Assembly: GCA_964452875.1 (NCBI GenBank)
Contig: CAYVNG010000003.1
Coordinates: 1-49,635, forward strand
Length of the DNA: 49,635 bases
Direction of reading: 5' to 3'
DNA from: an uncultured Candidatus Saccharibacteria bacterium
Lineage (GTDB): Bacteria > Patescibacteriota > Minisyncoccia > Minisyncoccales > CAYVNG01
The translations under genes and the position numbers were made by a program. Within the stretch, counting starts at the first letter, position 1; every line of letters starts with the position of its first letter. The notes beneath the pieces were generated by a model. It did no database searches. It was not told the origin of the DNA and saw only the letters and a program-made list of their open reading frames with translations. This document shows positions 12,594 through 49,458 of this stretch, in pieces.

Positions 12594-12603
12594 CGATATT
12601 TTG

Positions 12604-12675
12604 AGCGGGAGACGGGGATCGAACCCGCGGTCTTCTCCTTGGGAAGGAGACGTGTTACCACTGCACCACTCCCGC
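12604..12675 (-). tRNA. tRNA-Gly (anticodon CCC), no encoded CCA
   Basis: Cloverleaf folded by hand: acceptor GCGGGAG/CTCCCGC, anticodon arm TCTCC-TTCCCAA-GGAGA, T arm GCGGG-TTCGATC-CCCGT, discriminator U. Total length 72 nt. Confidence 0.9.
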
Positions 12676-16775: not shown

Positions 16776-17170
16776 TCATCCAGACAAGCTGTAAGCCGAA
16801 TTCTGTATCCGCCTTGAGGCGGACGGCAATCATCTATCTGGCTCTGACATTGCTGTCAGAATCGAGCGAACTACTTTACCCAAATGCTCCAGTCGAATTC
16901 CGGGGCTCCGGGTTTGTTCTTGCACCCAATAAGGATTTAGCCGTTTCATTCCGGCGTTCTCTCGCCCTTTATTTGCCGGACTGAGCCTGCATATCTGACG
17001 GGCGCAGGCTTCTTTTCTTTTTCAAGAAAAGCGTCACTGTTCGCACCTCTGCCGCCGTTACGGCGGCGATGGGGGTTACCCATTACTTTTTTACCGGGCA
17101 TTCGCCCGGAGGTGTTCGGACTTTCCTCTGGACCCTTCAAGGACCCAGCGATTGCCCGCTTGTCTGGACT
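16776..17170 (-). ncRNA. rnpB: RNase P RNA
   Basis: The minus strand carries the universally conserved P4 strands GAGGAAAGUCCGAAC (near 17113-17127) and ACAGAAUUCGGCUUACAG (near 16790-16807). P1 pairs CCAGACAAGC with GCUUGUCUGG. It has its own promoter and terminator. Confidence 0.87.
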
Positions 17171-29463: not shown

Positions 29464-30498
29464 ATGGAAAAAAATTGGGAAAAAATGAGGTCAGACAAAA
29501 TCCTCAAAGAAAATTTCATTTCATGCGGCAAAATCATTGATTTAATTCGCGTTTTTTTCAAAGAACAGGGATTTTTTGAAGCACAAACGCCAATTCTGGT
29601 AAGATGCGCCGGACAGGAACCATATCTTTCACCGTTTAAAGTGAACTTTACTAATGAAAAGAACGAAGAATTTCAAGGATTTTTGATAACTTCTCCAGAA
29701 TATTCCCTAAAAAAATTATTAGCGGCCGGTTTCGATAAAATTTTCGAACTGGTTAAAGTTTTCAGATCCAATGAAAGCTTCGGAGGCATACACAACCCCG
29801 AATTCACTATGCTTGAGTGGTACAGGGCAAATTCCGATTATAACCAGATGATGGAGGATATAGAACAACTAATCGTCTTTTTAGCCGAAAAGATAAAGAA
29901 TTCAAGGACCATTTCTTATCAAGGGGGAAAAATAGACCTCACTCCCCCCTGGCCCAGATTGACCGTCAGAAATTTATTCTTAGAATATGCCCGTATCGAT
30001 CTTGATAAGGCTCAAACCGTGGAAGATTTCAAAAAGCAAGCGAAGAATGAAAAATATTCCAAGTTTGACGATTGGAACGATATTTTCTATCTGGTTTTCT
30101 TAAATGAAATAGAACCAAATCTTCCGAAAGACAAGCCTGTTTTCGTCTGCGATTATCCCCTTCCTCAGGCTTCTTTATCGAAAAGGAAAAACGACTTTTA
30201 TGCGGAACGATTTGAAATGTTCATATCTGGAATGGAATTGGCAAACGCATTTTCCGAACTAGTTGATCCCAAAGAGCAATATGTCCGTTTCGAAGAAGAG
30301 CGCGTTCTTAGAAAAAAACTCGGCAAAGATGAAATACCGATTGACAAAGATTTCATTCATGCCTTAGAATTAGGAATTGCGCCGTCGGGCGGCATCGCTC
30401 TAGGAGTAGAGCGTCTTCAAATGCTTTTACTGGACGCAAAGGACATGAACGATATACTGCCCTTTCCGGCGAGTCAATTGTTTTCAGAAAATAAATGA
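29464..30498 (+). CDS. epmA: EF-P lysine-34 lysyltransferase (EpmA/PoxA/GenX-like; LysRS catalytic-core paralog)
   Basis: 344 aa. Class II motifs are present (GFFEAQTPILV; FRSNE...HNPEFTMLEWY; GIALGVERL) and there is no anticodon-binding domain. The gene sits immediately upstream of efp. Confidence 0.78.
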   Translation: MEKNWEKMRSDKILKENFISCGKIIDLIRVFFKEQGFFEAQTPILVRCAGQEPYLSPFKVNFTNEKNEEFQGFLITSPEYSLKKLLAAGFDKIFELVKVFRSNESFGGIHNPEFTMLEWYRANSDYNQMMEDIEQLIVFLAEKIKNSRTISYQGGKIDLTPPWPRLTVRNLFLEYARIDLDKAQTVEDFKKQAKNEKYSKFDDWNDIFYLVFLNEIEPNLPKDKPVFVCDYPLPQASLSKRKNDFYAERFEMFISGMELANAFSELVDPKEQYVRFEEERVLRKKLGKDEIPIDKDFIHALELGIAPSGGIALGVERLQMLLLDAKDMNDILPFPASQLFSENK

Positions 30499-30511
30499 CC
30501 GGAATAATATT

Positions 30512-31075
30512 ATGATTTCAACATCTGATTTTGAAAAAGGGATAATATTGAATATCGACGGCCAACCGTGGTTAATCACCGATTTTTCATATATGAATCC
30601 AGGAAAAGGCGGAGCTGTATACAGGACTAAGCTCAAGAATATCAAATCTGGAAAATTCATAAAAATGACTTTCAAATCGGGAGAGGAATTCGAAACGATG
30701 GAAAAGGAATATAAAAAGGCTATTTATCTGTACAGCGACAGGAGAAATTCGGTTTTTATAACTAATGATACAAAAGAAAGAATTTCTTTTCCTCTTGAAA
30801 ACACGCAAAATAAAATAAAATTCATCACCGGCAACTCCGAAGTGAATTTACTTTATATCGACGGGGAATTACTTTCAGTAGAAATTCCCATAAAAGTCGA
30901 TCTTAAGGTGGTTGAAGTCGAACAATCTATAAAAGGAAGCACAGTGGCCAACTTCATGAAAAAAGCTAAACTGGAAACCGGATTAGAAATTAGCGTACCG
31001 ATGTTTATAGAACAAGGAGATATAGTGCGGTTAAACACCGATTCGGGTGAATATACTGAAAGAGTGAGCAAATGA
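30512..31075 (+). CDS. efp: elongation factor P
   Basis: 187 aa, with the conserved loop YMNPGKGGAVYRTKLKN (Lys at the modified position). Confidence 0.93.
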   Translation: MISTSDFEKGIILNIDGQPWLITDFSYMNPGKGGAVYRTKLKNIKSGKFIKMTFKSGEEFETMEKEYKKAIYLYSDRRNSVFITNDTKERISFPLENTQNKIKFITGNSEVNLLYIDGELLSVEIPIKVDLKVVEVEQSIKGSTVANFMKKAKLETGLEISVPMFIEQGDIVRLNTDSGEYTERVSK

Positions 31076-31100
31076 AAATCCCGGCCTTGGCCGGGATTTT
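31075..31100. terminator. bidirectional terminator between the convergent efp and polyamine operon
   Basis: Sequence aaaatcccggcc-tt-ggccgggatttt. Confidence 0.7.
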
Positions 31101-32179
31101 CATTTACCCCTTTTGAATTCTACTCCTTCATTTTTTAATATGCCGATAATTTTCCTAAAAAGATGCTTTTCTTTCCCAATTTCTTCCATGAGGATAATCC
31201 CTTTCTTTATTTTTATCTCTTCCTTGAGTAAAAAATCCAGAACTGTTGCTGGCATCAAAGAGGTAATTTTTTGCATCGAATTTAATTTATCATTTTTTTT
31301 GGAAAAAATGGAAGCCTGCCAAAAAAAATTCTTTTGGCTTTTCCCGCCAATTTTAACGTAAATCGCGGTTGTGTTGTCGCTTTTTTCCAATGTCAATAAT
31401 TTTTCCGCCTGAGTTATATTCTCTTTTTTGAAAAAAGAATGATTTTTAAGGAATTGAAAAAAGTTGAAGAAGCCCACCGGCCTTATCACCCGGAAGCTAA
31501 GATTTTTGAGGCCGAGACTGTAAGGCAATGTGCTCCATTCGTCGACAAAATAGCTTTCGAAATTTCCCAAACCATCCAGTCTCTGTATTCTATAGCCGGA
31601 GAAAGGAGCCAACCTCATTTTTTCCCCTCGGCTGATCACCGTTGCATGATAAAGATGCTCTTCAATCAAATCGCTGAAAGACCAAGTAAAAGGGAAAAAA
31701 TGATTTTTCTTGACGGAAAGGGTGCCAGCCCCTATTTCAACCTCATCGTCTTTTTTGAAATTCCTCATGCCGAAACCTGCAATGAGATTAGTCAACCCCG
31801 GGGAAACGCCGCAGCCGGGAACCACTTTTATCCCTTTTTCTTCAATCTTTTTTTTATGCTTTAGATAAAAAGAAATCGGAACCACCGAAACGTCTATCAA
31901 ATCTTTTCCGTATTCCAAAGCCAATTCCAAGCCCCGTTTGCCGGATTGTTCCGGCAAGGCTCCGATTAAAAAATCGTATTTTTCTATCACTTGGACCCGT
32001 TCTGAATCAAAGACATCTCCTTTTAAAATTTTCACCCTGCTGGATCCCTTTAAACTATTTGCATCAAGGGAGAACAAGGCAATTTCAGAGATTGCCTTGT
32101 TCTTTTTGAGGTAATGGACTAATGCTCGGCCAATTTTCCCTCCTCCCAAGATTAAGACCTTTTTCCTTATAATCTCCAT
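31100..32179 (-). CDS. saccharopine dehydrogenase-family NAD(P) oxidoreductase (carboxyspermidine-DH/homospermidine-synthase-like context)
   Basis: 359 aa, with the Rossmann motif VLILGGGKIGRAL and the motif GCGVSPGLTNLIAG. It overlaps the end of speE. Confidence 0.6.
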   Translation of the reverse strand: MEIIRKKVLILGGGKIGRALVHYLKKNKAISEIALFSLDANSLKGSSRVKILKGDVFDSERVQVIEKYDFLIGALPEQSGKRGLELALEYGKDLIDVSVVPISFYLKHKKKIEEKGIKVVPGCGVSPGLTNLIAGFGMRNFKKDDEVEIGAGTLSVKKNHFFPFTWSFSDLIEEHLYHATVISRGEKMRLAPFSGYRIQRLDGLGNFESYFVDEWSTLPYSLGLKNLSFRVIRPVGFFNFFQFLKNHSFFKKENITQAEKLLTLEKSDNTTAIYVKIGGKSQKNFFWQASIFSKKNDKLNSMQKITSLMPATVLDFLLKEEIKIKKGIILMEEIGKEKHLFRKIIGILKNEGVEFKRGK

Positions 32180-33042
32180 ATCTCCGGCAGAACTAAGCTG
32201 GCTTTGTGGATTTCGGGAGAATAATATTTGAAACCAAATTTTTTCTGGATTTTTTTGAATCTTTCGCTTATTTTTGAAAAATTTGCTTTCTTCAGATCTA
32301 TTTTTTTCGAACCTCCGACAAAGAAATACTCACCGCAATGGTAAGATGGCATGCAGAATCTGAAAAGAGCGACAAACGGGAAAAACTCTCTTATCTTTTT
32401 AATGATAGGTTTGGCGAGATTATCAAAATCTAAGAAAGAAAATCCGAGAGTGATCATAATCCCGTTTGATTTGATAATTTTTAAAAGCTGTCTGTAAAAT
32501 CCATCCGAATACAAAGAATTTGAAAAGCCGTCAGAATTGAAATTGGTGCAATCTACAATGGCGACGTCGTAGATGTTTTTTTTACCTTTTATGAAGTTCT
32601 GGCCAGAGCAATTAAAAACGTTTACTCTTTTGTCTGAAAACGCGTTTCGGCAGACAAATTTAAGATATTTTTTTGATATTTTTATCACTTCTTTATCCAT
32701 TTCGACCAAATCGACTTTATCCACCGGATGCTTCAAAACTTCCCTCAAGACTCCCCCATCACCTCCTCCAATAATTAAGATTTTCTTTGGATTGGGATGG
32801 GAGAACAAAACGGGATGGGAAATCATCTCATGGTAGATAAATTCGTCTTTTTCGGAAAGTTCCACAATGCCTTCTAGACAAAAAACCCTTCCGTAAATCG
32901 GATTGTCAAAAATCAAAACATCCTGATAGGCTGTCTTGCCGCGAAAAACCAGCTTATCCATCAGAAAACAATGTTTTATTTTCTCAAACCTTTTCCCGGG
33001 AACCTTGTTTTCTGCGAACCATCTTTCTTTAGAGGTAAGCAT
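32167..33042 (-). CDS. speE: polyamine aminopropyltransferase (spermidine synthase family)
   Basis: 291 aa, with motifs YQDVLIFDNPIYGRVFCLEG and ILIIGGGDGGVLREVLKH. Confidence 0.85.
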   Translation of the reverse strand: MLTSKERWFAENKVPGKRFEKIKHCFLMDKLVFRGKTAYQDVLIFDNPIYGRVFCLEGIVELSEKDEFIYHEMISHPVLFSHPNPKKILIIGGGDGGVLREVLKHPVDKVDLVEMDKEVIKISKKYLKFVCRNAFSDKRVNVFNCSGQNFIKGKKNIYDVAIVDCTNFNSDGFSNSLYSDGFYRQLLKIIKSNGIMITLGFSFLDFDNLAKPIIKKIREFFPFVALFRFCMPSYHCGEYFFVGGSKKIDLKKANFSKISERFKKIQKKFGFKYYSPEIHKASLVLPEIWRL

Positions 33043-34183
33043 AAAAAGGTTTTTTGAATTTCACCTCTTTTATTTTCGAAGGCAAATAACTGAAGATGTA
33101 CAGGGAAGCGGCAAGTTTGGGAGATTTTTTGATGACTTCTTCATCGATCATCGACGCCAGTCTTCGAAAAATCTCTTCATCTTCCTTGTAAAGCTTGATA
33201 TAGGGATAAAATATTTTTCCCCTGATCAATTCTTTCGCAATCAAACCGTTTTTTGCGAAAAACTCATGCAGGGACAGAAATCTGTTCCCGATAGATTCCT
33301 CGCCGACCTCCAAAAAAGCCAAACCACCGTCTTTACCGAGCTGATTTAAGCCGAATTTTACGAATCCTTTTACCCCGTCGGCGGTATAAACGGGATTAGC
33401 CAAAAACCCGATGAATTTTCCAACACGGACATCTTTCCTGATGTCGACTTTTTTAGTTTCAATTTTCAAATTAAATTTTTTGGCCAGAAAATCAATCGTC
33501 GCCAAAAGCTGATCGTCGGCATCGATTACGACGCTTTCAAATCCAGGACAGATCAGTCCCATCACTATCGAAATGAAATCATCGTCCCCTACGAACAAAA
33601 ATTTTTTCTTCAGGGGAATCCTTTCTAAAATTTTATGAACCAGAAAAATCGCCGAACCCTGAGAAATGGGCATTTGATCCCATTGGCCTTTTACTTCAAA
33701 ACTCTTGAACTTTTCGAACAGCTTAACCATTGATTCCGAAGAACGGATTTTCACTTTAAGTTTTTCCTCCAGCAGATTTTTGATTTCTTCTTCTGTCAGC
33801 GGTTTTGGTATTATTTCCAATATTTCTTTATTCATATGGGTCACTTTGCCAGTTCTTCCTACTTTTATTAATTTGTTTTTTTCAAGGAAATAAAGGTAAG
33901 GCCAGAGTTTCCAATCTTCAGAGGAGTCCTTGAATATGAAATCGAAAACGTCTTTTGAATATAGAATATATTTCAGATTTTCGAGAAAATTAACGTAAGT
34001 AATCTTATAATACTGATCGTAAAATCTCCCTATTGTCGAATCGGACAACTTCAATTTTTTGAGGCTCGTGGAATTATTCTTGGCATCAAAAATAAAATTA
34101 TTCTTGTAGAAGGTGATGAATTTTTCGTAAATTTCTTCAAGTTTTTTTTCAGTCATGGCCTTATTTTTTATTATGGACGACAC
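33029..34183 (-). CDS. DUF43/BpsA-like aminopropyltransferase (branched-chain polyamine synthase family)
   Basis: 384 aa, with motifs FVGDDDFISIVMGL, VIDADDQLL and FLANPVYTADGVKGFV that resemble the DUF43 signature. Confidence 0.55.
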   Translation of the reverse strand: MSSIIKNKAMTEKKLEEIYEKFITFYKNNFIFDAKNNSTSLKKLKLSDSTIGRFYDQYYKITYVNFLENLKYILYSKDVFDFIFKDSSEDWKLWPYLYFLEKNKLIKVGRTGKVTHMNKEILEIIPKPLTEEEIKNLLEEKLKVKIRSSESMVKLFEKFKSFEVKGQWDQMPISQGSAIFLVHKILERIPLKKKFLFVGDDDFISIVMGLICPGFESVVIDADDQLLATIDFLAKKFNLKIETKKVDIRKDVRVGKFIGFLANPVYTADGVKGFVKFGLNQLGKDGGLAFLEVGEESIGNRFLSLHEFFAKNGLIAKELIRGKIFYPYIKLYKEDEEIFRRLASMIDEEVIKKSPKLAASLYIFSYLPSKIKEVKFKKPFYAYL

Positions 34184-34562
34184 CTCGAATTATTTCTTTC
34201 AATTCGATTTTTTTAGGATTATATTGTTCTTTTAAGTATTCCAAAGCTTTCAAAGGCTTAGCTTTGTCTCCGCAGGTAAAAATATCTATAGCCAAATAAT
34301 TGTATTCCGGCCAAGAATGAATGGAAATATGTGATTCCGCCAACAAAACGACCCCAGTGATTCCCCGAGGATTAAATTTGAAAGTCGAAACTTTTAACGG
34401 ATAACTTCCCGAATTATTTGCGGCGCCAATCAAAATTTTCTTTGTTTCAGCCGTGCTTTCTATTTCTTTTGCACCCCAAAATTCGGCAATCAGATGTATC
34501 CCTGCGTATTTTTTTTTTCTAAGACGGACCCATCGAATGGATCTCTTTGTTTTTAAAATCAT
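34161..34562 (-). CDS. speD: S-adenosylmethionine decarboxylase proenzyme, class 1 (pyruvoyl)
   Basis: 133 aa, with the self-cleavage motif LLAESHISIHSWPE. Confidence 0.85.
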   Translation of the reverse strand: MILKTKRSIRWVRLRKKKYAGIHLIAEFWGAKEIESTAETKKILIGAANNSGSYPLKVSTFKFNPRGITGVVLLAESHISIHSWPEYNYLAIDIFTCGDKAKPLKALEYLKEQYNPKKIELKEIIRGVVHNKK

Positions 34563-34749
34563 CGTTTTAAATCAATCGCTTACCCATAAATCGCTTAAGA
34601 TACGCAAATTCGTTTTGCGAGCCAAGCGCAAGGGCTTCCAATAATTAGGTTCATCACCTAAAAACAAAGAGTAAAAACAAAAAGCGATTGACTATTTATT
34701 TTAAAAGCGCTTATATGGGCTATTATATCACTTTCTAAAATAAATGCAA
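34563..34749 (-). promoter_or_regulatory. speD promoter (TTGCAT-16-TGaTATAAT) plus a ~155-nt leader with alternative pairings
   Basis: -35 at 34744-34749 and -10 at 34722-34727. The leader carries CAATCGCTT (34573-34581), AATCGCTTA x2 and the inverted AAGCGATTG (34682-34690). It also carries a CGCAA/TTGCG/CGCAA triplet (34603-34631). Confidence 0.35.
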
Positions 34750-34765
34750 ATTACCGGTTTTGTTT

Positions 34766-35674
34766 TCATTTATTTTTTACCAAGCTAAAATTATACGCCT
34801 TGTAGATATGTTCCGGATGGAATCTCTTTTTGAAGATGAGAAGCTTTTTATCACTTCCTCCGAAATCCAGTTTTTCAAATCCCGCTTTTTTCGCTTCAAA
34901 AAACATCTCCAAAGACATATATTCCCCTAAGCCGTCGTAATCGTAATCCCTAATGCTGATGCTCGGGTAAAAAGTCCTGGAATTGGGTATTCCCCAGCCG
35001 GCGAACAAGGCCGCCGGTTTTCCATTTATCAAAAACGCCTTGGATAATTCGCATCCGGGAAATCCTGCCTTGATAAATCTCAAGTAAGGTTCGCATTCCA
35101 TTATTTCCTCCCCGTCCTTGTGCTTTTTCCATTTCCAGACAAGGTCTTCCAATCCTTTTTTGTCGGCTTTGACGGCTTCAATCTTTTCTATCTGGTAATG
35201 CTTTGTGAAATAGTTCTTTGACTTCCTCAGCTTCCTCCATTTTTTCCCTTCAAGCTTTTCGTCGAATTTGGCCAGATCATAGACCGGCCACCAGGAAACG
35301 AAGGAAGGGACCGAGGCCTTCCATCCCAAATCCGGCGCCATGCCGAGGATACTTTTTCTCGCTTCCTTCTTGCAATCAAGGAACATTATTTTCGTGATAT
35401 CTTTCCTTCCGGAGATATATTCCATCATCTCTCGCAGGCAGGAAAGCTCTTTGACTTTATCGATAATCGGAGGAAAAGGAATCTTCCAGATGTGATCTTT
35501 AAAAAAAGTCAAAGCTCCCCCTCTGTCTCCGAAATCCAAATACACGGGCTTGTACTCTTCCGGCTGTTCGTCAAAAAAGAGGTAATAGATATTGTGATCC
35601 GGGAAATCCCCGTAATTTTTTAAGTCCAATTCGGCTTTCCGCCGAATTTTATCCTGATCTTCGATAATTTGCAT
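34766..35674 (-). CDS. DUF2156 / MprF C-terminal-domain-like (aminoacyl-tRNA-dependent transferase fold) protein
   Basis: Start trimmed to MQIIEDQ (302 aa). The motifs GKKWRKLRKSKNYFTKHYQIEKIE and LDFGGSDKKLLIFKKRFHPE resemble the LPG_synthase_C family. The assignment is from memory only. Confidence 0.45.
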   Translation of the reverse strand: MQIIEDQDKIRRKAELDLKNYGDFPDHNIYYLFFDEQPEEYKPVYLDFGDRGGALTFFKDHIWKIPFPPIIDKVKELSCLREMMEYISGRKDITKIMFLDCKKEARKSILGMAPDLGWKASVPSFVSWWPVYDLAKFDEKLEGKKWRKLRKSKNYFTKHYQIEKIEAVKADKKGLEDLVWKWKKHKDGEEIMECEPYLRFIKAGFPGCELSKAFLINGKPAALFAGWGIPNSRTFYPSISIRDYDYDGLGEYMSLEMFFEAKKAGFEKLDFGGSDKKLLIFKKRFHPEHIYKAYNFSLVKNK

Positions 35675-35714
35675 ATGTTTCCCTTTCAGACAGAGTTTAC
35701 CAAAAAAAGCCTTT

Positions 35715-35750
35715 TTTCCCAAATACAAAGCCCCGCTTTCAAGCGGGGCG
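35715..35750 (-). terminator. terminator after the PurD-like gene
   Basis: Minus strand reads GCCCCGC-ttgaaa-GCGGGGC followed by TTTGTATTT. Confidence 0.55.
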
Positions 35751-35765
35751 ACATTGAGGTTTTTT

Positions 35766-37064
35766 TCACAAATATCCCCAGTCCCGCAACTTCGCTTCCT
35801 CTGTCTTCCAGTGGTCCCCTATATCCAGCCTGTAAACGGCGTTGGGGATGATTATCCCCTTCATCCTGTCATAAGCGCACTTCTTGGCGGCTTCCATGGT
35901 TTTTCCGCTTCCATTTATGGTCAGAACGTACCCTGAGCCTCCAGTATAGTATTTGCCGTTCTTCTCGTAAGCTTGGGCCATTTTGACGTAAGCCCTGTTT
36001 TTATCGGTTATCCCTAAAATGGGAAGATCTCTTCCATATTTATTGTAAGAGATCTCGTAGGGCATGCCGGCTCCTCCCATTATCACTCCGACGGCGAAAT
36101 TATCGTACGTGTCGAAATGTTTCAAGGTCCCGTCGGCCACCTTTTTCAATATTTCCCCCCAGCTGGTTTTGTGAAGCTCGCCCTGTATGTCAACCTGGGG
36201 ATATCCGAATCTGGCCGTAAAATCAATCGGATAAGCTGCCTCCTTGGTGACGATGCAATTCAGATCTATGAATCCCCGGTAATTGGTCTTTGCTAGATAG
36301 GATTTTATTTTGGAAAGGGTCTCTTTAAAAAGCCTTCCTCCTGTTTCAGAATAATACATTGACGTCCCCATTTCCCCTGTCAACGGACCAAGCCCTCCGG
36401 TCAGAAAATGCTTGTGTTCGAAGCTGACGTTAACAGGCGAAGCGAATTCTTTGCCGTTGAAAAAGGCTCCTGTCGCCATTTCTATGCCGTCTATCAATTC
36501 TTGCAGGATGAAGTCCGCTTTTTGGCTCTTAGGTTGCATGATAAAGTGCAATTTTTTGTCCTTCGACCAGGACTCTTGAAGACTTTCAATCATCTTTATC
36601 AAATCAAACCCATCATCGGATTTACCCAAATAGCAGGTATAGCGCTCGGGCTGTCCTGAAAGTTTTATTACATATTTCTTCGGTCTTTTTTTTATGAATT
36701 CGATCCCTGCCTGGAAATTATTGAAGTGCCATGAAGGAGGGAGCTTCATTCCTGCTTCCCTCATTATTTTCTGGGCAAAAATCCTGTCGTTTTCCAGCCT
36801 GTCACCGAATCTGTTTCCTCCCACGACCAAATATCCTTTTTTCCTAAGGCTTTCAATATCCTCGCCGCAGTTAACGTCGTCAAAAACTATGACGTCAGCC
36901 CAATCTTTGTGGCTCTTCCAGTTATTGACTCTGGGCACAAGATTCCTGGCCACGTCCCGCATTTTCTTGTCGCGAATATAGAACTTTACTTGATGCCCCT
37001 CCATTTGGAGGCTTTGAGCCACTGTGGCGCTTTCTCCGAATATGGTTACAAAAAGAAATTTCAT
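35766..37064 (-). CDS. PurD (glycinamide-ribonucleotide synthetase)-like ATP-grasp ligase, non-canonical N-domain
   Basis: Start trimmed to MKFLFVT. It aligns by eye with E. coli PurD along its length (LENDRIFAQKIM, FEHKHFLTGGLGPLTGEMG, GFIDLNCIV...DFTARFGYPQ, AYDRMKGI...YRLDIG). The N-terminal GNGGREHA motif is absent. Confidence 0.72.
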   Translation of the reverse strand: MKFLFVTIFGESATVAQSLQMEGHQVKFYIRDKKMRDVARNLVPRVNNWKSHKDWADVIVFDDVNCGEDIESLRKKGYLVVGGNRFGDRLENDRIFAQKIMREAGMKLPPSWHFNNFQAGIEFIKKRPKKYVIKLSGQPERYTCYLGKSDDGFDLIKMIESLQESWSKDKKLHFIMQPKSQKADFILQELIDGIEMATGAFFNGKEFASPVNVSFEHKHFLTGGLGPLTGEMGTSMYYSETGGRLFKETLSKIKSYLAKTNYRGFIDLNCIVTKEAAYPIDFTARFGYPQVDIQGELHKTSWGEILKKVADGTLKHFDTYDNFAVGVIMGGAGMPYEISYNKYGRDLPILGITDKNRAYVKMAQAYEKNGKYYTGGSGYVLTINGSGKTMEAAKKCAYDRMKGIIIPNAVYRLDIGDHWKTEEAKLRDWGYL

Positions 37065-37069
37065 TTTTT

Positions 37070-37612
37070 TTAAGGAATGAATACCACGGCGGCCACTACT
37101 GAAGTCCATAGTCCGCCTTTGTCTCCCCTGGCAGTCTGGGTGACGTTTCTGGTATACACAATTTTTTTGCTCATTTTAAAGGCCTGCTTCCTATAGTCCC
37201 AGGCCTGTTCGGGATCGAAGGTCATCCCTAAGGTTGAAGCCAACATTGAAGCAGCCAAATCCTCGGCATAAGGACCGGCCGTGTCAGCGTTTTCTCCGAA
37301 AGAGTGGTATTCGGCTATGTATCCGTAATGCTTTTCTTCGGATGGAATAGCCGCCCCGACCGAAGCTGATATGAGACGATTAGGCTCATCAGTTTCATTT
37401 CTGGATATGACGCAAAAAGTTATTTCTCCAGGGTTCAAAAAAGGGACTCCTTTTTCCATACTCACTTTTTTGCAACGCGGCGGCAGAATGCTTGAAACCT
37501 GAACGATATTAAGATGGGCTATCCTGGCATCCCTCAAAGCGAGCTCAAACGACCTGAGTTTGTCCTTGTGGACCCCCACTCCTTTGGTGAAGAAAAATTT
37601 TTTGGGAACCAT
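37070..37612 (-). CDS. pdaD: pyruvoyl-dependent arginine decarboxylase
   Basis: 180 aa, beginning FFFTKGVGVHKDKLRSFELALRDARIAHLNIVQVSSILPP. Confidence 0.85.
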   Translation of the reverse strand: MVPKKFFFTKGVGVHKDKLRSFELALRDARIAHLNIVQVSSILPPRCKKVSMEKGVPFLNPGEITFCVISRNETDEPNRLISASVGAAIPSEEKHYGYIAEYHSFGENADTAGPYAEDLAASMLASTLGMTFDPEQAWDYRKQAFKMSKKIVYTRNVTQTARGDKGGLWTSVVAAVVFIP

Positions 37613-44289: not shown

Positions 44290-45213
44290 TTATTTTTTTG
44301 TTATTGTTTTCAGTATGGTTTTGACTATTTCGCCTGAAGTCATCCTGCACTTTTTCCTTATATACTCAGCCTTCCCCACTTTGGAAAAAAACTCGTCCGG
44401 CAGAGCTACCTTCTTTAAAACGCCTGGCCAGCCCCGCTCAGCCATAGTCTCAGATATCAAGGTGCCTAGTCCCCCGAGGATATTGTGCTCTTCCATGGAA
44501 AAAACAAACTTTTGATTTTTAAGCTCTTTATAAAGAGCGTTCCTGTTGACCGGCTTTAATGTGGGCAGGCTGATAAGCTTTAAATCGTGCCCCAGGGATT
44601 TGAGGCTGTCTGAGACCTCTTTGCCGATTCTCAAGAATATGCCGTTGACCACCATTGCCCCTTCCTTCCCTTTTTCAATGACGCACGGCTCTCCTATTTT
44701 GATCTTGTCTCTTCTTTTATGGACCATTTTGTCTCCTCCTCTGTTCAGCTGCATGAAAGAAGGGGCTGGACTGCGGTATGATTCCAGCATCAGCTTTTCT
44801 GCCTCAAGAGGGTCTCCGGGGCAGAGAACGCAGAAATTCGGCAGCAATCTTATAATCCCGGCATCTTCCATGGCGTGGTGAGTGGCTCCCAGTTCTCCGT
44901 AAGACACTCCTCCTCCGACCCCCACTATTTTCACGTCCAAATTCTGGTAAGCAATGTCGTTCCTTATCTGCTCTAAACACCTTATCGTCACGAAAGGTGC
45001 GATCGAATAGACATAGGGCTTTTTCCCTTCCAGAGCCAGTCCGGCGGCCACTCCCATCATGTTCTGCTCTGCCACCCCGCAGTTGACGAACCTTTCTGGA
45101 AATCTTTCGGCAAAAGTCTCGAAAACGGAAAAGCCGAGGTCTCCGGTCAAGAGATATATCCTTTTATCCTTTTCCGCCAGTTTTATCAGCGTGTTTATGA
45201 AAGCGGTCCTCAT
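44290..45213 (-). CDS. transketolase, C-terminal (pyrimidine-binding) subunit
   Basis: Start trimmed to MRTAFINTL (ATGA overlap with the upstream stop), with the motif GVAEQNMMGVAAGLA. Confidence 0.82.
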   Translation of the reverse strand: MRTAFINTLIKLAEKDKRIYLLTGDLGFSVFETFAERFPERFVNCGVAEQNMMGVAAGLALEGKKPYVYSIAPFVTIRCLEQIRNDIAYQNLDVKIVGVGGGVSYGELGATHHAMEDAGIIRLLPNFCVLCPGDPLEAEKLMLESYRSPAPSFMQLNRGGDKMVHKRRDKIKIGEPCVIEKGKEGAMVVNGIFLRIGKEVSDSLKSLGHDLKLISLPTLKPVNRNALYKELKNQKFVFSMEEHNILGGLGTLISETMAERGWPGVLKKVALPDEFFSKVGKAEYIRKKCRMTSGEIVKTILKTITKK

Positions 45214-46010
45214 GAAATTTCTTTTATCGCTTTTTCGAAAAGTTCGTCTGTTAAATTCTTGTAATGCCATTCCATCTTGTTCTCCATGAAAGAAACCCCC
45301 CTCCCTTTGACGGTATGGGATATCAACAAGCTGGGTTTTCCTTTTTTAAAAGGGATCTTTGACAAAACTTTTTCGAGCTCGTTGAGATTGTGCCCGTCAA
45401 CCTCTTTCACTTGCCAGCCGAAATCTTCCCATTTTTTTGCCAAGGGCTCGAGATTCAAGACCTTGTTCGTCCTGCCGAAAGCCTGAAGCTTGTTGTAGTC
45501 AATTATGCTTGTCAGATTATCCAGCTTGTGGTGGCCGGCAAAGAGGGCTGCTTCCCAATTGGACCCCTCGTCGCATTCTCCGTCCGACATCAAGACGAAA
45601 ACTCTCTGGCTTCTCTTGTCTTTCTTCAAAGCCAGGGCCATGCCGGTTGCCATGGGAAGGCCGTGCCCTAAGGCACCGGTGGTGACCTCCACTCCGGGCA
45701 TCGATCTCTTTGTCGAATGGCCCGGCATCTTCTCCCCGTCCTTGCAGTAGTGATCAAGCTCTTTTAAGGGGAAAAATCCTCTTAAAGCCAAGGTTGAGTA
45801 AAGGCTGGCCACGGCATGCCCTTTTGATAAAACGAATCTGTCCCTTTTCTCTGAAAATGGATTTTTGGAGTCTATTCTCAGAATTTTGAAATAAAGGATA
45901 GTAAGTATCTCAACGCAGCTCAAGCAGGACCCTATGTGCGAGGTCTGGGATTTAAGCATCATTCTGAGAATGTTTTTCCTTATTTCCTTTGCCCTTTCTT
46001 CCAAGCTCAT
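45210..46010 (-). CDS. transketolase, N-terminal (ThDP-binding) subunit
   Basis: 266 aa, with motifs SHIGSCLS, LSKGHA and GALGHGLPMATGMALA...MSDGECDEGSNWEA. Confidence 0.82.
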   Translation of the reverse strand: MSLEERAKEIRKNILRMMLKSQTSHIGSCLSCVEILTILYFKILRIDSKNPFSEKRDRFVLSKGHAVASLYSTLALRGFFPLKELDHYCKDGEKMPGHSTKRSMPGVEVTTGALGHGLPMATGMALALKKDKRSQRVFVLMSDGECDEGSNWEAALFAGHHKLDNLTSIIDYNKLQAFGRTNKVLNLEPLAKKWEDFGWQVKEVDGHNLNELEKVLSKIPFKKGKPSLLISHTVKGRGVSFMENKMEWHYKNLTDELFEKAIKEIS

Positions 46011-46125: not shown

Positions 46126-46989
46126 TTGAAAACCATAAGAGTTGAAAGCTTATTTGACCAGGGAACAACCAGAATCGTGGAGGATGCAATGATCGTCAGC
46201 TTCCCCTCGTACTTCGGCGTCTTTGACGGGGTAAGTGCCCCTCATGACGAAATCGAGAATCCGCCGCTCACATACCCAGGAGGGATCACTGGCGGCCAAA
46301 TGGCAGTGAAAGAGATGCAATCTGCTTTCGCTGCAGCTGACTCGACGACGCCGATGGACGACATCCTCATGTCGGCCAACCGAAGGATCATGGCAAATCA
46401 CTTTTTCTGCCACGGAATCCTTCCGAGAGAAACCGAGAAGATGGGAGGAACAGCCTTCGTGGCGGCCAAACTGGAGAAAGACAAGGTGTCTATAATCCAG
46501 GGAGGCGATTGTTTCGCTCTCTTGAAGACCGAACACGACGGCTTCAGGGTGACCCGAAACCAGGTTTACGGCCACGATGTCGTTCTGCGAGAGCGAATCA
46601 ATGATCTGCGGGAGAAGTACGGCGACGATAAGGTGGTATGGCACGGACTCAGACCGCTGATGATCGAACTGCGCAAAGCGCACGCCAACCAGTTGGTCGA
46701 AGACGGCTATGCCGTCCTGAATGGCCAGCCACAGGTAGCCGAGTGCTGGAACGCATTCGAGACGCCGGCCGATGGCCTTCAGTACCTGCTGCTCTTCTCA
46801 GACGGGTTTGTCCCATTCGAGAAGACCAGGGGAGAAGAAATACTTGGCAAATGGGTGATCGACATCTACGAGAAAGAAGGACTCCTGGGAGTTCTTCGCG
46901 AGACCAGGAAAGAGAAAAAATCGGCAAAGCAAGCAAATAACGCTTACTTCGCCGAGGCCACTGCCATGGCCGTCACTTTCTTCGCCTGA
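46126..46989 (+). CDS. PP2C-like protein phosphatase-fold protein (TTG start)
   Basis: 287 aa. PP2C-like motifs are FGVFDGVS, GGTAFVAAKL...GGDCFALL, LLLFSDGF and EATAMAV. AAGGAGGAAGGAG precedes the TTG. The gene is visibly GC-richer than its neighbours. Confidence 0.55.
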   Translation: MKTIRVESLFDQGTTRIVEDAMIVSFPSYFGVFDGVSAPHDEIENPPLTYPGGITGGQMAVKEMQSAFAAADSTTPMDDILMSANRRIMANHFFCHGILPRETEKMGGTAFVAAKLEKDKVSIIQGGDCFALLKTEHDGFRVTRNQVYGHDVVLRERINDLREKYGDDKVVWHGLRPLMIELRKAHANQLVEDGYAVLNGQPQVAECWNAFETPADGLQYLLLFSDGFVPFEKTRGEEILGKWVIDIYEKEGLLGVLRETRKEKKSAKQANNAYFAEATAMAVTFFA

Positions 46990-46998
46990 TCGTCCATT

Positions 46999-47031
46999 TC
47001 AGCCTCTTGGAAACAAGGGGCTGATTTTTTT
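46999..47031 (+). terminator. intrinsic terminator after the PP2C-like gene
   Basis: Hairpin tcagcctcttg-gaaa-caaggggctga followed by ttttttt. Confidence 0.75.
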
Positions 47032-47620
47032 AGAGAATAGCCGATCTTACAGTCCTGAGTATTATTTTGATATCAAGCCAAAAAGACCTCGTTTTTACGT
47101 ATTGTTTGGCCAGCCTTAGCTTTTTGGGCTTGATAAGCTCCCTATATGTCTGATGGGGATCCTTGCTCCCTTTGAGGATCTCTTCTTCGTGTATGTCCTC
47201 AAGAGTAGCCAGGTCCGTAATCCCCGGCCTCATGCTCAGAATTATCTCTCTTGTCTCTTTATCATAAGTTTCCACTTCCTGAGGCACTTCAGGCCTGGGA
47301 CCGACGAAGCTCATCTTCCCCCTTAAGACGTCTATGAACTGGGGAAGCTCGTCCAGATTATGGCTTCTCAGTTTCCTTCCTATCCTGGTCAGCCTTTCGT
47401 CGTCAGCTGAGGTAGAAGGGCCTCCCAGGCTTTCAGCGTCCCTCACCATGGTCCTGAACTTGAAGATCCTGAAAACCTTTCCTTCTTTCCCCACTCTTTT
47501 GCCCCGGAAGAATACCGGCCCTCCGTCCTCTATTTTTATCAATAAGGATATTATTAAAAAGATTGGAGAAGCGACAACGATTCCCAGCAAAGAAAAAAAT
47601 ATATCGAACAATCTTTTCAT
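47030..47620 (-). CDS. polyprenyl-phosphate sugar-phosphate transferase (PglC/WbaP C-terminal-like)
   Basis: 196 aa, with motifs MKRLFDIFFSLLGIVVASPIF, FKFRTM and DELPQFIDVLRGKMSFVGPRP. Confidence 0.85.
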   Translation of the reverse strand: MKRLFDIFFSLLGIVVASPIFLIISLLIKIEDGGPVFFRGKRVGKEGKVFRIFKFRTMVRDAESLGGPSTSADDERLTRIGRKLRSHNLDELPQFIDVLRGKMSFVGPRPEVPQEVETYDKETREIILSMRPGITDLATLEDIHEEEILKGSKDPHQTYRELIKPKKLRLAKQYVKTRSFWLDIKIILRTVRSAIL

Positions 47621-47853
47621 TTTTTTGGTTCGGAAAATATGAAAACGACTTTAAAGGCCCACTGCCTCAGCCCCGGGATCTTAGCTAAAACTGCGTCAAC
47701 TTTTTCCAGCATTTCCAGTATGATGTTCGATCCTGGCAAATTAAGGAAAGGAAAAACGACCCAGGAAATTATGTGAAAGTAATTCACTTCAATCTTTTCG
47801 AAGTGCTTCTTCGCCGTTTCCAGATCCTTTCTGCTGAATATATGCTCTACCGC
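47617..47853 (-). other. in-frame continuation (78 sense codons) of the methyltransferase frame after the internal TGA
   Basis: The same frame reads AVEHIFSRKDLETAKKHFEKIEVNYFHIISWVVFPF...WAFKVVFIFSEPKK. It ends in a TGA that overlaps the ATG of the sugar transferase (ATGA at 47617-47620). Confidence 0.6.
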
Positions 47854-48396
47854 TCAGCCGGTTCTTGATTTTCTTAACTTATTGATCTTTCTTTTAAGAT
47901 TGGCGAATGGATTGTGGCCGAAAGTCTCAATGCCTATAAGTTTTCCTTCAGGATTCAAGACCCTGGCTATTTCCGGCAAAGCTTTATTAATATCCAGGGA
48001 AGAAAACGTTCCTCCATCGAATACGACGTCAAAACGGTTGGCCTCGAATTCCAGATTCTCGCAATCCATTTTGACAAACTGAATTTTCCCTTCCATTCCT
48101 TCTTTTATCGCCCTTTGCCTTGCCAGGATCAAAGAGGGCTCTGACAAATCAATGCCAGTGACTTTGGCTCCTATTTTCGCTGGAAAAATGGAATGTATCC
48201 CGTTGCCGCATCCGTAATCCAGCAAGTTCTTATTTTTAGCGTTCTTTTCAATCCATTGGTAGCAAAATCGGAAGCTGGACAGCAAATCGGCCCTGAACCC
48301 CTCAAAGTCGCCTTTCCCGGCTTTTTTCGGATCCTCAAGGGATTCTTTCGCCCTTTTGTCGTAGTATTCGATTTCTTTTTCCTTTCTTTCTTCCAT
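47854..48396 (-). CDS. class I SAM-dependent methyltransferase, first 180 codons up to an in-frame TGA
   Basis: SAM motif LLDYGCGNGIHS. The ORF stops at TGA 47854-47856 in the middle of the expected domain. Confidence 0.75.
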   Translation of the reverse strand: MEERKEKEIEYYDKRAKESLEDPKKAGKGDFEGFRADLLSSFRFCYQWIEKNAKNKNLLDYGCGNGIHSIFPAKIGAKVTGIDLSEPSLILARQRAIKEGMEGKIQFVKMDCENLEFEANRFDVVFDGGTFSSLDINKALPEIARVLNPEGKLIGIETFGHNPFANLKRKINKLRKSRTG

Positions 48397-48400
48397 AGCT

Positions 48401-49390
48401 TTATTTTATTATAATTTTGACCAGCCCCCACAAAGATCCGAATCCGTAAGCCAAATGCCTTGTGGAGAAAACAACGGGCATTAAAAAAATATATCTGAAA
48501 CCGTTTTTTAATGCTATTTTAGCAGAAAAAAAGATGGTCAAAATGCCGTAAGCTCCGACGAGAAATGCCAGAAAAAATTTCCCCCACCAAAACAAGAAGG
48601 AAAGAAATATGCCCGATGCCAATCCTGCGACTAGAAACAAAGGAAAAAGATGCCTTAAGCTGAAAATTTTGACCTTGAACTTCAAAGGATAAGTAAGCCA
48701 GGTTCCGTCCAGGAAGTTATGTTTAAAGAAGCTGGAAAGACCAGACCTGAAATAGTAATAAGTGACGGCGTTCGGAATTAAAAAAATCTTTCCTCCTGCC
48801 TTTTTCAATCTTTTATTAAATTCAATATCTTGTGACCTTATTAATTTTTCATTGAAAAGGCCCGCCTTGTCAAAGACTTCTTTTTTATAGCATCCTCCGA
48901 AAAATGCATCCACTTCTCTTATTTTTTTTGAGCCGGTCCTGAAGAATGCATTTCCTGCCCCGAAAAAACTAGACAGACAAAATGCGATAGCTTTTGAGAA
49001 AAAAGTATTTTCTTGAGGAAGATTTCTGATTATCCCTCCGGCTCCGTCGGCAGCATTTTCCTGTAAAAACCCAATGCATTTTTCAATAAAATCATTCTCG
49101 TATCTGGCATGACCGCTGGCGATCATAATAATATCTCCTTTTGAATTTTTAATCCCTATATTCAAGGCAAATGGACTATATTTTTTGGGATTGTCAAAAA
49201 GCTTCACAAAAGGATATTTCTGCCTATATTTATTTATTATCTCCCTTGTCCTGTCTTCTGACATTCCGTTAACCGCAAGAATCTCCATCTGCTCTTTTGG
49301 ATAAGTTTGATCCAAAAGAGAATCTATACAGTTCTCGATGAATTTCTCCTCGTTCCTACAAAGGATGATTATAGAAACAAATCTTTTCAT
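48401..49390 (-). CDS. family 2 glycosyltransferase with C-terminal TM helices
   Basis: 329 aa, beginning VSIIILCRNEEKFIENCIDSLLDQTY, with a DxD-like region and a hydrophobic tail. Confidence 0.82.
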   Translation of the reverse strand: MKRFVSIIILCRNEEKFIENCIDSLLDQTYPKEQMEILAVNGMSEDRTREIINKYRQKYPFVKLFDNPKKYSPFALNIGIKNSKGDIIMIASGHARYENDFIEKCIGFLQENAADGAGGIIRNLPQENTFFSKAIAFCLSSFFGAGNAFFRTGSKKIREVDAFFGGCYKKEVFDKAGLFNEKLIRSQDIEFNKRLKKAGGKIFLIPNAVTYYYFRSGLSSFFKHNFLDGTWLTYPLKFKVKIFSLRHLFPLFLVAGLASGIFLSFLFWWGKFFLAFLVGAYGILTIFFSAKIALKNGFRYIFLMPVVFSTRHLAYGFGSLWGLVKIIIK

Positions 49391-49458
49391 GTCCTTTTAA
49401 AAAATTGTCAAAATCTTTAGAAAATTGAAAATCAAAGATCTCTTTTCTATCTATAAAC

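What the first reader, a model, noticed from the sequence alone, without database searches (positions are those of the whole stretch)
47617..48396. In-frame TGA splits an otherwise intact, translationally coupled methyltransferase
Seen in sequence: the methyltransferase frame stops at TGA 47854-47856 (...KLRKSRTG*). The same frame then continues for 78 sense codons (AVEHIFSRKDLE...WAFKVVFIFSEPKK) and ends in a TGA that overlaps the ATG of the next gene (ATGA). That geometry is typical of a functional gene end. Elsewhere in the window TGA clearly terminates genes such as secA, lepA and the gene at 1529 that is followed by a terminator, so genome-wide UGA reassignment is unlikely. Possible explanations are a very recent nonsense mutation, a sequencing or assembly error, a population variant, programmed read-through, or a selenocysteine-type recoding. 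I saw no obvious SECIS-like hairpin immediately downstream.
Basis: seen in the sequence. Interest (0 to 1): 0.65.

Follow-up and report, generated by a model that had tools for sequence, protein, structure and literature searches.

The report
Recent nonsense mutation in glycan methyltransferase
A single G-to-A change has turned an invariant tryptophan codon (TGG) into a TGA stop inside a sugar-cluster methyltransferase gene of an uncultured Patescibacteria (Parcubacteria-type) bacterium, so this is most likely an ordinary, very young broken gene and not a recoding event.

Summary
On the minus strand a class I SAM-methyltransferase frame (48396 to 47617) is interrupted by TGA at 47854-47856. 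It then runs 78 more sense codons to a TGA that overlaps the ATG of the next gene (ATGA, 47620-47617).

All 122 homologous proteins aligned are about 260 aa long and have Trp at this position (motif RTxWAxxHI). All 18 related DNA loci with this motif have TGG there, including three relatives of 88-90% protein identity with the same gene order and the same ATGA overlap. The stop is therefore one TGG>TGA transition.

It is unlikely to be an assembly error. Contigs from four samples, which differ from the window at 0-4 other sites, all carry TGA.

It is not a code change. Eighteen other genes in the window end in TGA exactly where their families or orthologues end (SecA, LepA, EF-P, DegT and others). 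No other gene is split by a TGA.

A selenocysteine reading is not supported, and the stop is not conserved in any relative.

The downstream codons show no decay (dN/dS about 0.10 against 0.09 upstream), so the mutation is young.

The same lineage has also deleted a second methyltransferase about 1 kb away in the same operon.

Verdict: an ordinary young pseudogene, possibly leaky through tRNA-Trp. Low interest.

The parts
47857..48396 (-). N-terminal 180 codons of the class I SAM-dependent methyltransferase. They contain the SAM-binding motif LDYGCGNG and the Methyltransf_11/25 domain, residues 59-154.
   Evidence: This part is 92% identical to the closest full-length relatives.
47854..47856 (-). 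In-frame TGA at codon 181, the position of an invariant Trp. It is one G>A transition away from the TGG of all relatives.
   Evidence: window CCGGCTGAGCGG against relative CCGGCTGGGCGG; W in 122/122; TGG in 18/18 loci.
47620..47853 (-). 78 further sense codons in the same frame, encoding the C-terminal third of the methyltransferase. In the model of the intact relative this part holds strands beta-6 and beta-7 and three helices.
   Evidence: dN/dS is about 0.10, the same as upstream. There are no indels against the relatives.
47617..47620 (-). ATGA overlap: the ancestral stop (TGA 47619-47617) of the methyltransferase overlaps the ATG (47620-47618) of the next gene.
   Evidence: The same 4-nt overlap is present in the intact relatives L001, L004 and L005.
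47030..47620 (-). Downstream gene: a small Bac_transf-type sugar transferase (196 aa). No Shine-Dalgarno-like sequence is visible before its ATG.
   Evidence: PF02397, E 9e-61; upstream sequence CCGAACCAAAAAAATG.
48401..49390 (-). Upstream gene: a family 2 glycosyltransferase (329 aa). Its stop lies 4 nt before the methyltransferase ATG.
49392..49454 (-). About 62-nt relic of the 5' end of a second methyltransferase gene (Methyltransf_23 type, 224 aa in relatives). Its start codon is ATG>ATA and the remaining ~0.6 kb is deleted in this lineage.

Best explanation
A genuine and evolutionarily very recent nonsense mutation (TGG>TGA, W181*) has hit a ~259-aa class I SAM-dependent methyltransferase. 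The gene sits in a surface-glycan operon (UDP-glucose dehydrogenase, GT2, methyltransferase, Bac_transf sugar transferase, ..., DegT aminotransferase, Polysacc_synt_2 dehydratase, Wzy_C) of an uncultured freshwater Patescibacteria (Parcubacteria-type) bacterium that uses the standard bacterial code. Shown: the stop is a single transition at an invariant Trp codon, it is the consensus allele in several assemblies of one population, and TGA is a normal stop in this genome. Inferred: release factor 2 ends translation at codon 181. The 180-aa product would lack beta-6, beta-7 and the C-terminal helices of the Rossmann-like fold and is probably inactive, so the gene is a young pseudogene. Also inferred: the ancestral ATGA stop-start coupling to the downstream sugar transferase is lost for most ribosomes, because they now terminate 234 nt upstream, and this may lower its expression. 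Any natural low-level UGA misreading by the near-cognate tRNA-Trp(CCA) would insert the original residue, so a trace of wild-type enzyme may still be made. The deletion of a second methyltransferase in the same operon suggests this lineage is shedding methyl decorations of its glycan.
For: 1. Trp occupies the site in 122/122 homologous proteins, and none ends there.
2. TGG is present in all 18 related loci that carry the motif (two more-distant loci, L020 and L022, lack it). They include three relatives at 88-90% protein identity with identical gene order and the same ATGA overlap.
3. The TGA allele is present in contigs from four samples (JGI 3300022556, JGI 3300025136, ENA ERZ27245614, Logan SRR5214703). 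They are 99.95-100% identical to the window but differ from it at 0-4 other sites. The Logan contig has word depth about 8 and no variant.
4. The genome uses the standard code. Stops are 19 TAA, 19 TGA (including this one) and 3 TAG. TGA-ended SecA, LepA, EF-P, DegT and the saccharopine-dehydrogenase-like gene are covered to the last profile position. TGA stops coincide with the orthologues' stops in L005. No other coding frame is split by one TGA into two long halves.
5. The mutation is young. dN/dS is 0.099-0.10 downstream against 0.084-0.098 upstream. Window-branch changes are 11 synonymous / 5 non-synonymous downstream against 31 / 11 upstream (Fisher p = 0.75). A rough bound puts neutral evolution at under ~17% of the branch.
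6. The truncation removes core structure. In the AlphaFold model of P0001 (mean pLDDT 85), W193, which corresponds to W181 in the window, precedes strands 211-219 and 261-269. Full-length structural matches are class I small-molecule and sugar methyltransferases.
7. There is independent gene loss in the same operon: the relic of a deleted Methyltransf_23 gene.
Against: No raw reads could be inspected, so the allele frequency within the population is unknown; Logan contigs drop rare variants. The downstream 78 codons show no decay at all. That fits a very young mutation but equally fits continued use of the full-length frame. The four samples probably represent one population or site, so the allele is confirmed as real but not as independently recurrent. 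Loss of activity in the truncated protein and polarity on the downstream gene are inferred, not shown.
Confidence: 0.8

Rival explanations
1. Functional read-through: the TGA is decoded as Trp at a biologically useful rate. This could be near-cognate tRNA-Trp(CCA), perhaps a variant with a 4-bp anticodon stem, or a suppressor tRNA. The gene would then stay active at reduced or regulated dosage and remain under selection.
For: Trp is exactly what near-cognate UGA misreading inserts (established knowledge). [quoted passage not shown] The downstream frame is fully intact with dN/dS about 0.10, and the allele persists in several samples.
Against: None of the 18 related loci with this motif has a stop here, so nothing is conserved as a recoding site. 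There is no distinctive context (+4 G, as in other TGA stops of the window). There is no significant downstream structure (z = -1.3), and the flanking sequence is the same as in the TGG relatives. TGA serves as an efficient-looking stop for 18 other genes. An intact downstream frame is expected anyway for a young mutation. A second methyltransferase of the operon was lost outright.
Confidence: 0.09
2. Sequencing or assembly artefact, or a minority variant promoted to the consensus: the organism really has TGG.
For: The site differs from relatives by one base, and coverage is modest (Logan word depth about 8). Raw reads could not be examined.
Against: Four assemblies from four sample accessions, made by different pipelines (JGI, ENA k141, Logan), plus the window contig itself all carry TGA. 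They differ from one another at other positions, so they are not copies of one consensus. No near-identical full-length version exists in the protein collection: the best full-length hit is 90% identical.
Confidence: 0.04
3. A split but functional gene: the 180-aa N-terminal part and a separately initiated C-terminal peptide (for example from GTG at 47787, 56 aa) assemble into an active enzyme.
For: A GTG-initiated 56-aa ORF exists in frame. JGI gene calling listed a 31-aa ORF at the end.
Against: The first in-frame ATG/GTG/TTG lies 22 codons after the stop. A separate C-terminal piece would therefore lack invariant A182, H185 and I186. No Shine-Dalgarno-like sequence precedes it. No homologue is organised as two genes.
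Confidence: 0.02
4. Selenocysteine insertion, or a genome-wide UGA reassignment (code 4 UGA=Trp, or code 25 UGA=Gly as in Gracilibacteria/Absconditabacteria).
For: The organism belongs to Patescibacteria, a phylum in which one lineage recodes UGA (PMC13293708). The in-frame UGA sits in an otherwise intact gene.
Against: The conserved residue is Trp, not Cys/Sec or Gly. There is no SECIS-like hairpin, and the predicted stem includes the UGA itself with z = -1.3. No tRNA-Sec or tRNA(UCA) is in the window. About 46% of the window's genes end in TGA at family-consistent ends. The three other Trp codons of this gene are TGG. UGA-to-Gly recoding is reported as restricted to the Gracilibacteria/JAEDAM01 lineage.
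Confidence: 0.01

Closest known systems
Nonsense-mutation pseudogenes in bacterial surface-polysaccharide (O-antigen/capsule-type) gene clusters
   Same: A single point mutation truncates a decoration enzyme inside an otherwise intact operon. Orthologues in close relatives are intact, and a further accessory gene of the same cluster is deleted.
   Different: No phenotype is known, because the host is an uncultured Patescibacteria bacterium. The mutation is so young that no secondary decay is visible.
Leaky UGA termination by near-cognate tRNA-Trp(CCA), including 4-bp anticodon-stem variants (PMC13092985)
   Same: The stop is UGA and the ancestral residue is Trp, so any natural misreading would restore the wild-type protein.
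   Different: No evidence here of enhanced read-through. The site is not conserved as a stop in relatives, and there is no stimulatory context or structure. The tRNA-Trp gene is not in the window.
UGA-to-Gly recoding (genetic code 25) of Gracilibacteria/Absconditabacteria, the known code change within Patescibacteria
   Same: Same phylum-level group; an in-frame UGA inside a conserved gene.
   Different: Here UGA terminates 18 other genes. The site is a conserved Trp, not Gly. The family's homologues come from Parcubacteria/Paceibacterota-type genomes.
Class I SAM-dependent small-molecule and sugar methyltransferases with solved structures (e.g. RebM 3bus, AtmM 6uv6, TM1389 2avn)
   Same: The Rossmann-like methyltransferase fold and SAM motif are shared. 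Structure matches span about 240-277 columns at probability 1.0, and sequence-profile matches reach E 4e-16 to 1e-11.
   Different: Identity is only 13-21% and the substrate is unknown. The Patescibacteria family has its own invariant RTxWAxxHI motif. The window copy is truncated before beta-6.

Membership tests
Class I SAM-dependent methyltransferase (Pfam Methyltransf_11/25) | Domain match above the curated threshold | tested here: met
   PF08241 scores 76.3 bits (cut-off 21.2) and PF13649 scores 73.1 bits (cut-off 27), over residues 59-154.
Class I SAM-dependent methyltransferase (Pfam Methyltransf_11/25) | Glycine-rich SAM-binding motif I (D/E-x-G-x-G-x-G) | tested here: met
   LDYGCGNG at residues 59-66 is invariant in the family alignment.
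Class I SAM-dependent methyltransferase (Pfam Methyltransf_11/25) | Complete seven-stranded fold encoded in one uninterrupted reading frame | tested here: not met
   The stop at codon 181 precedes beta-6 and beta-7 of the model of the intact relative. The window copy is therefore a disrupted member.
Pseudogene by recent nonsense mutation | Intact orthologues carry a sense codon one substitution away at the same site | tested here: met
   TGG in 18/18 related loci and W in 122/122 proteins.
Pseudogene by recent nonsense mutation | The stop is real (reproducible in independent data) | tested here: met
   Contigs from four samples with 0-4 other differences all carry TGA. Raw reads are not available.
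Pseudogene by recent nonsense mutation | Relaxed selection or secondary lesions downstream of the stop | tested here: not met
   dN/dS is 0.10 downstream against 0.09 upstream, with no indels. This fits only a very young lesion, or a frame that is still in use.
Selenoprotein (bacterial Sec recoding) | UGA aligned with Cys/Sec in homologues | tested here: not met
   Trp in 122/122.
Selenoprotein (bacterial Sec recoding) | SECIS hairpin just downstream of the UGA | tested here: not met
   The best fold has z = -1.3, and its first stem includes the UGA itself. The same flanking sequence occurs in the TGG relatives.
Selenoprotein (bacterial Sec recoding) | selA, selB, selC, selD in the genome | not testable with these tools
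   Only the 49.6-kb contig is held. It has no tRNA-Sec. The source genome is not in the genome collection.
Genome-wide UGA reassignment (code 4 or 25) | UGA not used as a stop at gene ends | tested here: not met
   18 other genes end in TGA at positions matching Pfam profile ends or orthologue ends.
Genome-wide UGA reassignment (code 4 or 25) | Many in-frame UGAs at conserved Trp/Gly positions | tested here: not met
   The scan for frames split by one stop into two parts of 70 or more codons finds only this gene among the coding frames.
Genome-wide UGA reassignment (code 4 or 25) | Loss of RF2 and presence of tRNA(UCA) | not testable with these tools
Programmed stop-codon read-through | Stop codon conserved at the site across relatives | tested here: not met
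   0 of 18 related loci have a stop there.
Programmed stop-codon read-through | Measured read-through product | not testable with these tools
   No RNA or proteome data are available. Only DNA runs hold the sequence.

The most novel reading that the evidence does not exclude
The TGA is kept, not just tolerated. In this Parcubacteria-type population it would be read as Trp at a useful rate by tRNA-Trp(CCA), perhaps a 4-bp anticodon-stem form. That would turn a constitutive glycan methyltransferase, and through lost stop-start coupling the downstream sugar transferase too, into a low-dosage or condition-dependent gene. It would be a natural example of a 'self-correcting' nonsense allele used as an expression dial.
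Probability: 0.07. Interest if true: 0.45.

Novelty: already known. Interest (0 to 1): 0.12.

Why it matters
As found, it matters little. It is a textbook young pseudogene and should be annotated as such (W181*, disrupted class I methyltransferase) rather than as two ORFs or a recoding event. There are two modest points of value. First, together with the deleted second methyltransferase it records ongoing loss of methyl decorations in the surface-glycan operon of an uncultured Patescibacteria population. This is the kind of variation expected under host or phage pressure. Second, it is a clean negative control for code-change screens in this phylum: one in-frame UGA at a Trp site in a genome that clearly uses UGA as a stop.

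Tried and rejected
- **Read pile-up.** The four runs that hold the sequence are kept only as Logan contigs. Only X1 covers the site (one contig, depth about 8, no variant). X2, X3 and X4 have low-coverage gaps there.
- **Metagenome scan.** An exact-pattern scan with N at the variable base found only one contig, the TGG relative Ga0265297_10014203. That collection does not hold the TGA contigs, so it gave no allele counts.
- **Source genome.** The search for the source genome among GTDB species representatives failed (best hit 64% identity). prfB, tRNA-Trp and selABCD could therefore not be checked.
- **SECIS or stimulatory structure.** The fold of the 81 nt from the stop onward is not significant. 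Rfam finds only RNase P RNA and one tRNA in the whole window.
- **Natural end of the family at this point.** Rejected: 0 of 122 homologues end there.
- **Internal terminator after the stop.** A weak terminator-like hairpin lies at 47805-47785, but the region's count is at chance level (4 found against 2.8 expected).
- **Decay signal downstream of the stop.** None was found.

Full report
**What is there.**
The feature lies on the minus strand. The frame starting at ATG 48396 encodes 180 residues ending ...KLRKSRTG. It meets TGA at 47854-47856 and then continues for 78 sense codons (AVEHIFSRKDLE...FKVVFIFSEPKK). It ends at TGA 47619-47617, which overlaps the ATG (47620-47618) of the next gene as ATGA. 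A stop-free run of 78 codons has a chance probability of about 0.01 from composition alone. Chance is in any case excluded by homology, as shown below.

**What the gene is.**
The read-through product matches the class I SAM-methyltransferase Pfam families Methyltransf_11, _25 and _31 (E 3e-21 to 7e-19) over residues 59-154. It carries the SAM motif LDYGCGNG. A search of the large protein collection gave 757 hits. The best 120 are 250-284 aa long and nearly all cover 96-100% of the 259-aa query. Where named, they come from Parcubacteria, Nealsonbacteria, Paceibacterota or 'Patescibacteria group' genomes. Genome loci carrying the family come from the same kind of organisms.

An AlphaFold model of the closest full-length relative (P0001, mean pLDDT 85, pTM 0.84) is a complete Rossmann-like methyltransferase. 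Its best structural matches are small-molecule and sugar methyltransferases such as MitM, RebM, AtmM and TM1389, aligned over about 240-277 columns. Sequence-profile matches to solved structures cover only the SAM-binding core.

The neighbours are:
- a GT2 glycosyltransferase immediately upstream;
- a small Bac_transf-type sugar transferase immediately downstream;
- further along the same strand, a split transketolase, a DegT-type aminotransferase, a Polysacc_synt_2 dehydratase and a Wzy_C protein;
- the 3' end of a UDP-glucose dehydrogenase at the contig end.

This is a surface-glycan biosynthesis operon, so the methyltransferase most likely decorates a sugar. That last point is an inference.

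**Which residue belongs at the stop.**
In a 27-sequence alignment, and then in all 122 retrieved homologues, the column is Trp without exception. It sits inside an invariant motif R-T-x-W-A-x-x-H-I. No homologue ends within 69 columns of it. At the DNA level all 18 related loci that carry the motif have TGG.

The three closest relatives (88-90% protein identity) come from an ENA assembly, a biogas-fermenter metagenome and a JGI metagenome. They have the same flanking sequence (CCGGCTGGGCGGTAGAG against the window's CCGGCTGAGCGGTAGAG). They also share the gene order GT2, methyltransferase, Bac_transf and the same 4-nt ATGA overlap. The window allele is therefore one G>A transition in the third position of a Trp codon. 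The 'coupled' gene end is the ancestral end of the gene.

**Is the stop real?**
Raw reads are not available; the runs that hold the sequence are kept as contigs. However, the 180-aa truncated product is encoded on contigs from four sample accessions (JGI 3300022556, JGI 3300025136, ENA ERZ27245614, Logan SRR5214703), assembled by different pipelines. These contigs are 99.95-100% identical to the window over 4.5-11.4 kb but differ from it at 0-4 other positions. They are separate consensus sequences of one population, and all carry TGA. No near-identical full-length version exists in the protein collection. An error in a single assembly is therefore unlikely. The allele is at least the majority allele of that population.

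**Is UGA a sense codon in this organism?**
No. Of 41 plausible genes in the window, 19 end in TAA, 3 in TAG and 19 in TGA, counting this one. For the TGA-ended genes:
- the Pfam profile reaches its last position at or within a few residues of the protein's end in SecA (SEC-C motif 1-19/19 at residues 800-818 of 818), LepA (LepA_C to 106/107 at residue 601 of 602), EF-P, DegT and the saccharopine-dehydrogenase-like gene;
- three TGA stops coincide with the stop of the orthologue in relative L005;
- the gene at 1529 is followed by a terminator-like hairpin.

A scan for frames split by one stop into two long halves finds no other such case in a coding frame. The other three Trp codons of this gene are TGG. 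Within Patescibacteria, UGA recoding is reported only as UGA-to-Gly in the Gracilibacteria/JAEDAM01 lineage (PMC13293708). That fits neither the residue nor the stop usage seen here.

**Selenocysteine or programmed read-through?**
Sec sites align with Cys, not with an invariant Trp. The 81 nt starting just before the stop fold no better than shuffles (z = -1.3), and the first stem includes the UGA itself. The flanking sequence is identical in the relatives that have TGG. The window holds only tRNA-Gly(CCC) and RNase P RNA. A programmed read-through site should be conserved as a stop, and it is a stop in none of 18 relatives. The +4 base (G) is unremarkable among the window's TGA stops.

**Age of the mutation.**
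The downstream 78 codons have no indel and no second stop. Against the three close relatives, dN/dS is 0.099-0.10 downstream and 0.084-0.098 upstream. Changes assigned by parsimony to the window's own branch are 31 synonymous and 11 non-synonymous codons upstream, and 11 and 5 downstream (Fisher p = 0.75). A rough Poisson bound allows neutral evolution of the downstream part for less than about 17% of that branch. So either the mutation is very young or the frame is still read. This test cannot separate the two, and I say so in the rival explanations.

**Consequences (inferred).**
In the model of the intact relative, the Trp (W193 in P0001, corresponding to W181 in the window) lies in a short helix. 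It precedes helix 201-207, strand 211-219, two helices and strand 261-269. The 180-aa product would therefore lack two of the seven core strands and the C-terminal helices, so it is probably inactive.

Ribosomes now terminate 234 nt before the ATG of the Bac_transf gene. That gene has no visible Shine-Dalgarno sequence, and in relatives it is reached by ATGA stop-start overlap. Its translation may therefore be reduced.

UGA is the stop that near-cognate tRNA-Trp(CCA) misreads. [quoted passage not shown] Any leak would therefore rebuild exactly the wild-type enzyme. This is the only reading with some novelty that I cannot exclude. I give it under 10%.

**Supporting context: a second loss in the same operon.**
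In relatives L001 and L005 a 224-aa Methyltransf_23-type gene lies between the UDP-glucose dehydrogenase and GT2 genes. In the window only its first ~62 nt remain (49454-49392). The start codon is changed from ATG to ATA, and the relic is joined directly to the GT2 start; about 0.6 kb is deleted. This lineage has therefore already discarded one methyltransferase of the cluster. That makes simple loss of the second one the economical explanation.

**Verdict.**
This is an ordinary young pseudogene in a standard-code Patescibacteria (Parcubacteria-type) genome. It is a known kind of feature and of low interest.

Noticed in passing
window 49392-49454 (- strand): The intergenic stretch between the UDP-glucose dehydrogenase stop and the GT2 start is a ~62-nt relic of the 5' end of a second methyltransferase gene (Methyltransf_23 type, 224 aa in relatives L001 and L005). 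Its start codon is ATG>ATA, and about 0.6 kb is deleted in this lineage.
   Followed up: yes
L025 (JGI 3300025136) positions 2578 and 2589 = window 47043 and 47031: One population variant carries two 1-nt indels 11-12 nt apart near the 3' end of the Bac_transf gene. The called product is 215 aa instead of 196 aa. It could be real micro-heterogeneity or an assembly error in a homopolymer-rich stretch.
   Followed up: partly
window 42229, 42844, 44680, 38263: SNPs distinguish the window from otherwise identical contigs of other samples. This shows several closely related genotypes of one population.
   Followed up: partly
window 16776-17167 (- strand): Bacterial class A RNase P RNA (125 bits, full-length model match). 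It fills the 0.5-kb gap between the MurJ and RNase H genes.
   Followed up: no
window 12603-12675 (- strand): tRNA-Gly (anticodon CCC), the only tRNA in the window.
   Followed up: no
window 44290-46010 (- strand): A transketolase split into N-terminal (266 aa) and C-terminal (326 aa) genes that overlap by 61 nt. The same arrangement is present in relative L005. It is embedded in the glycan operon, so it may act in sugar modification rather than in the pentose phosphate pathway.
   Followed up: partly
window 31100-37612 (- strand): A polyamine-type gene cluster: pyruvoyl arginine decarboxylase, AdoMet decarboxylase, spermidine synthase, a BpsA_C (branched-chain polyamine synthase C-terminal) domain protein, a saccharopine-dehydrogenase-like protein, a GARS-like ATP-grasp protein and an LPG_synthase_C domain protein.
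   Followed up: no
window 29464-31075 (+ strand): A 344-aa protein consisting only of a class II aaRS core (tRNA-synt_2) lies directly upstream of EF-P. This arrangement resembles the EpmA/PoxA EF-P lysylation system.
   Followed up: no
window 20036-21751 (- strand): A 571-aa protein with a TrwB/VirD4-type coupling-protein domain and a treble-clef zinc finger. The next gene upstream encodes a 496-aa protein with no Pfam match and 19 Trp residues.
   Followed up: no
window 46126-46989 (+ strand): A 287-aa protein on the opposite strand inside the glycan operon with no Pfam match. It is conserved in the relatives (283 aa in L001 and L005) and is flanked by a terminator-like hairpin at 46999-47024.
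   Followed up: no
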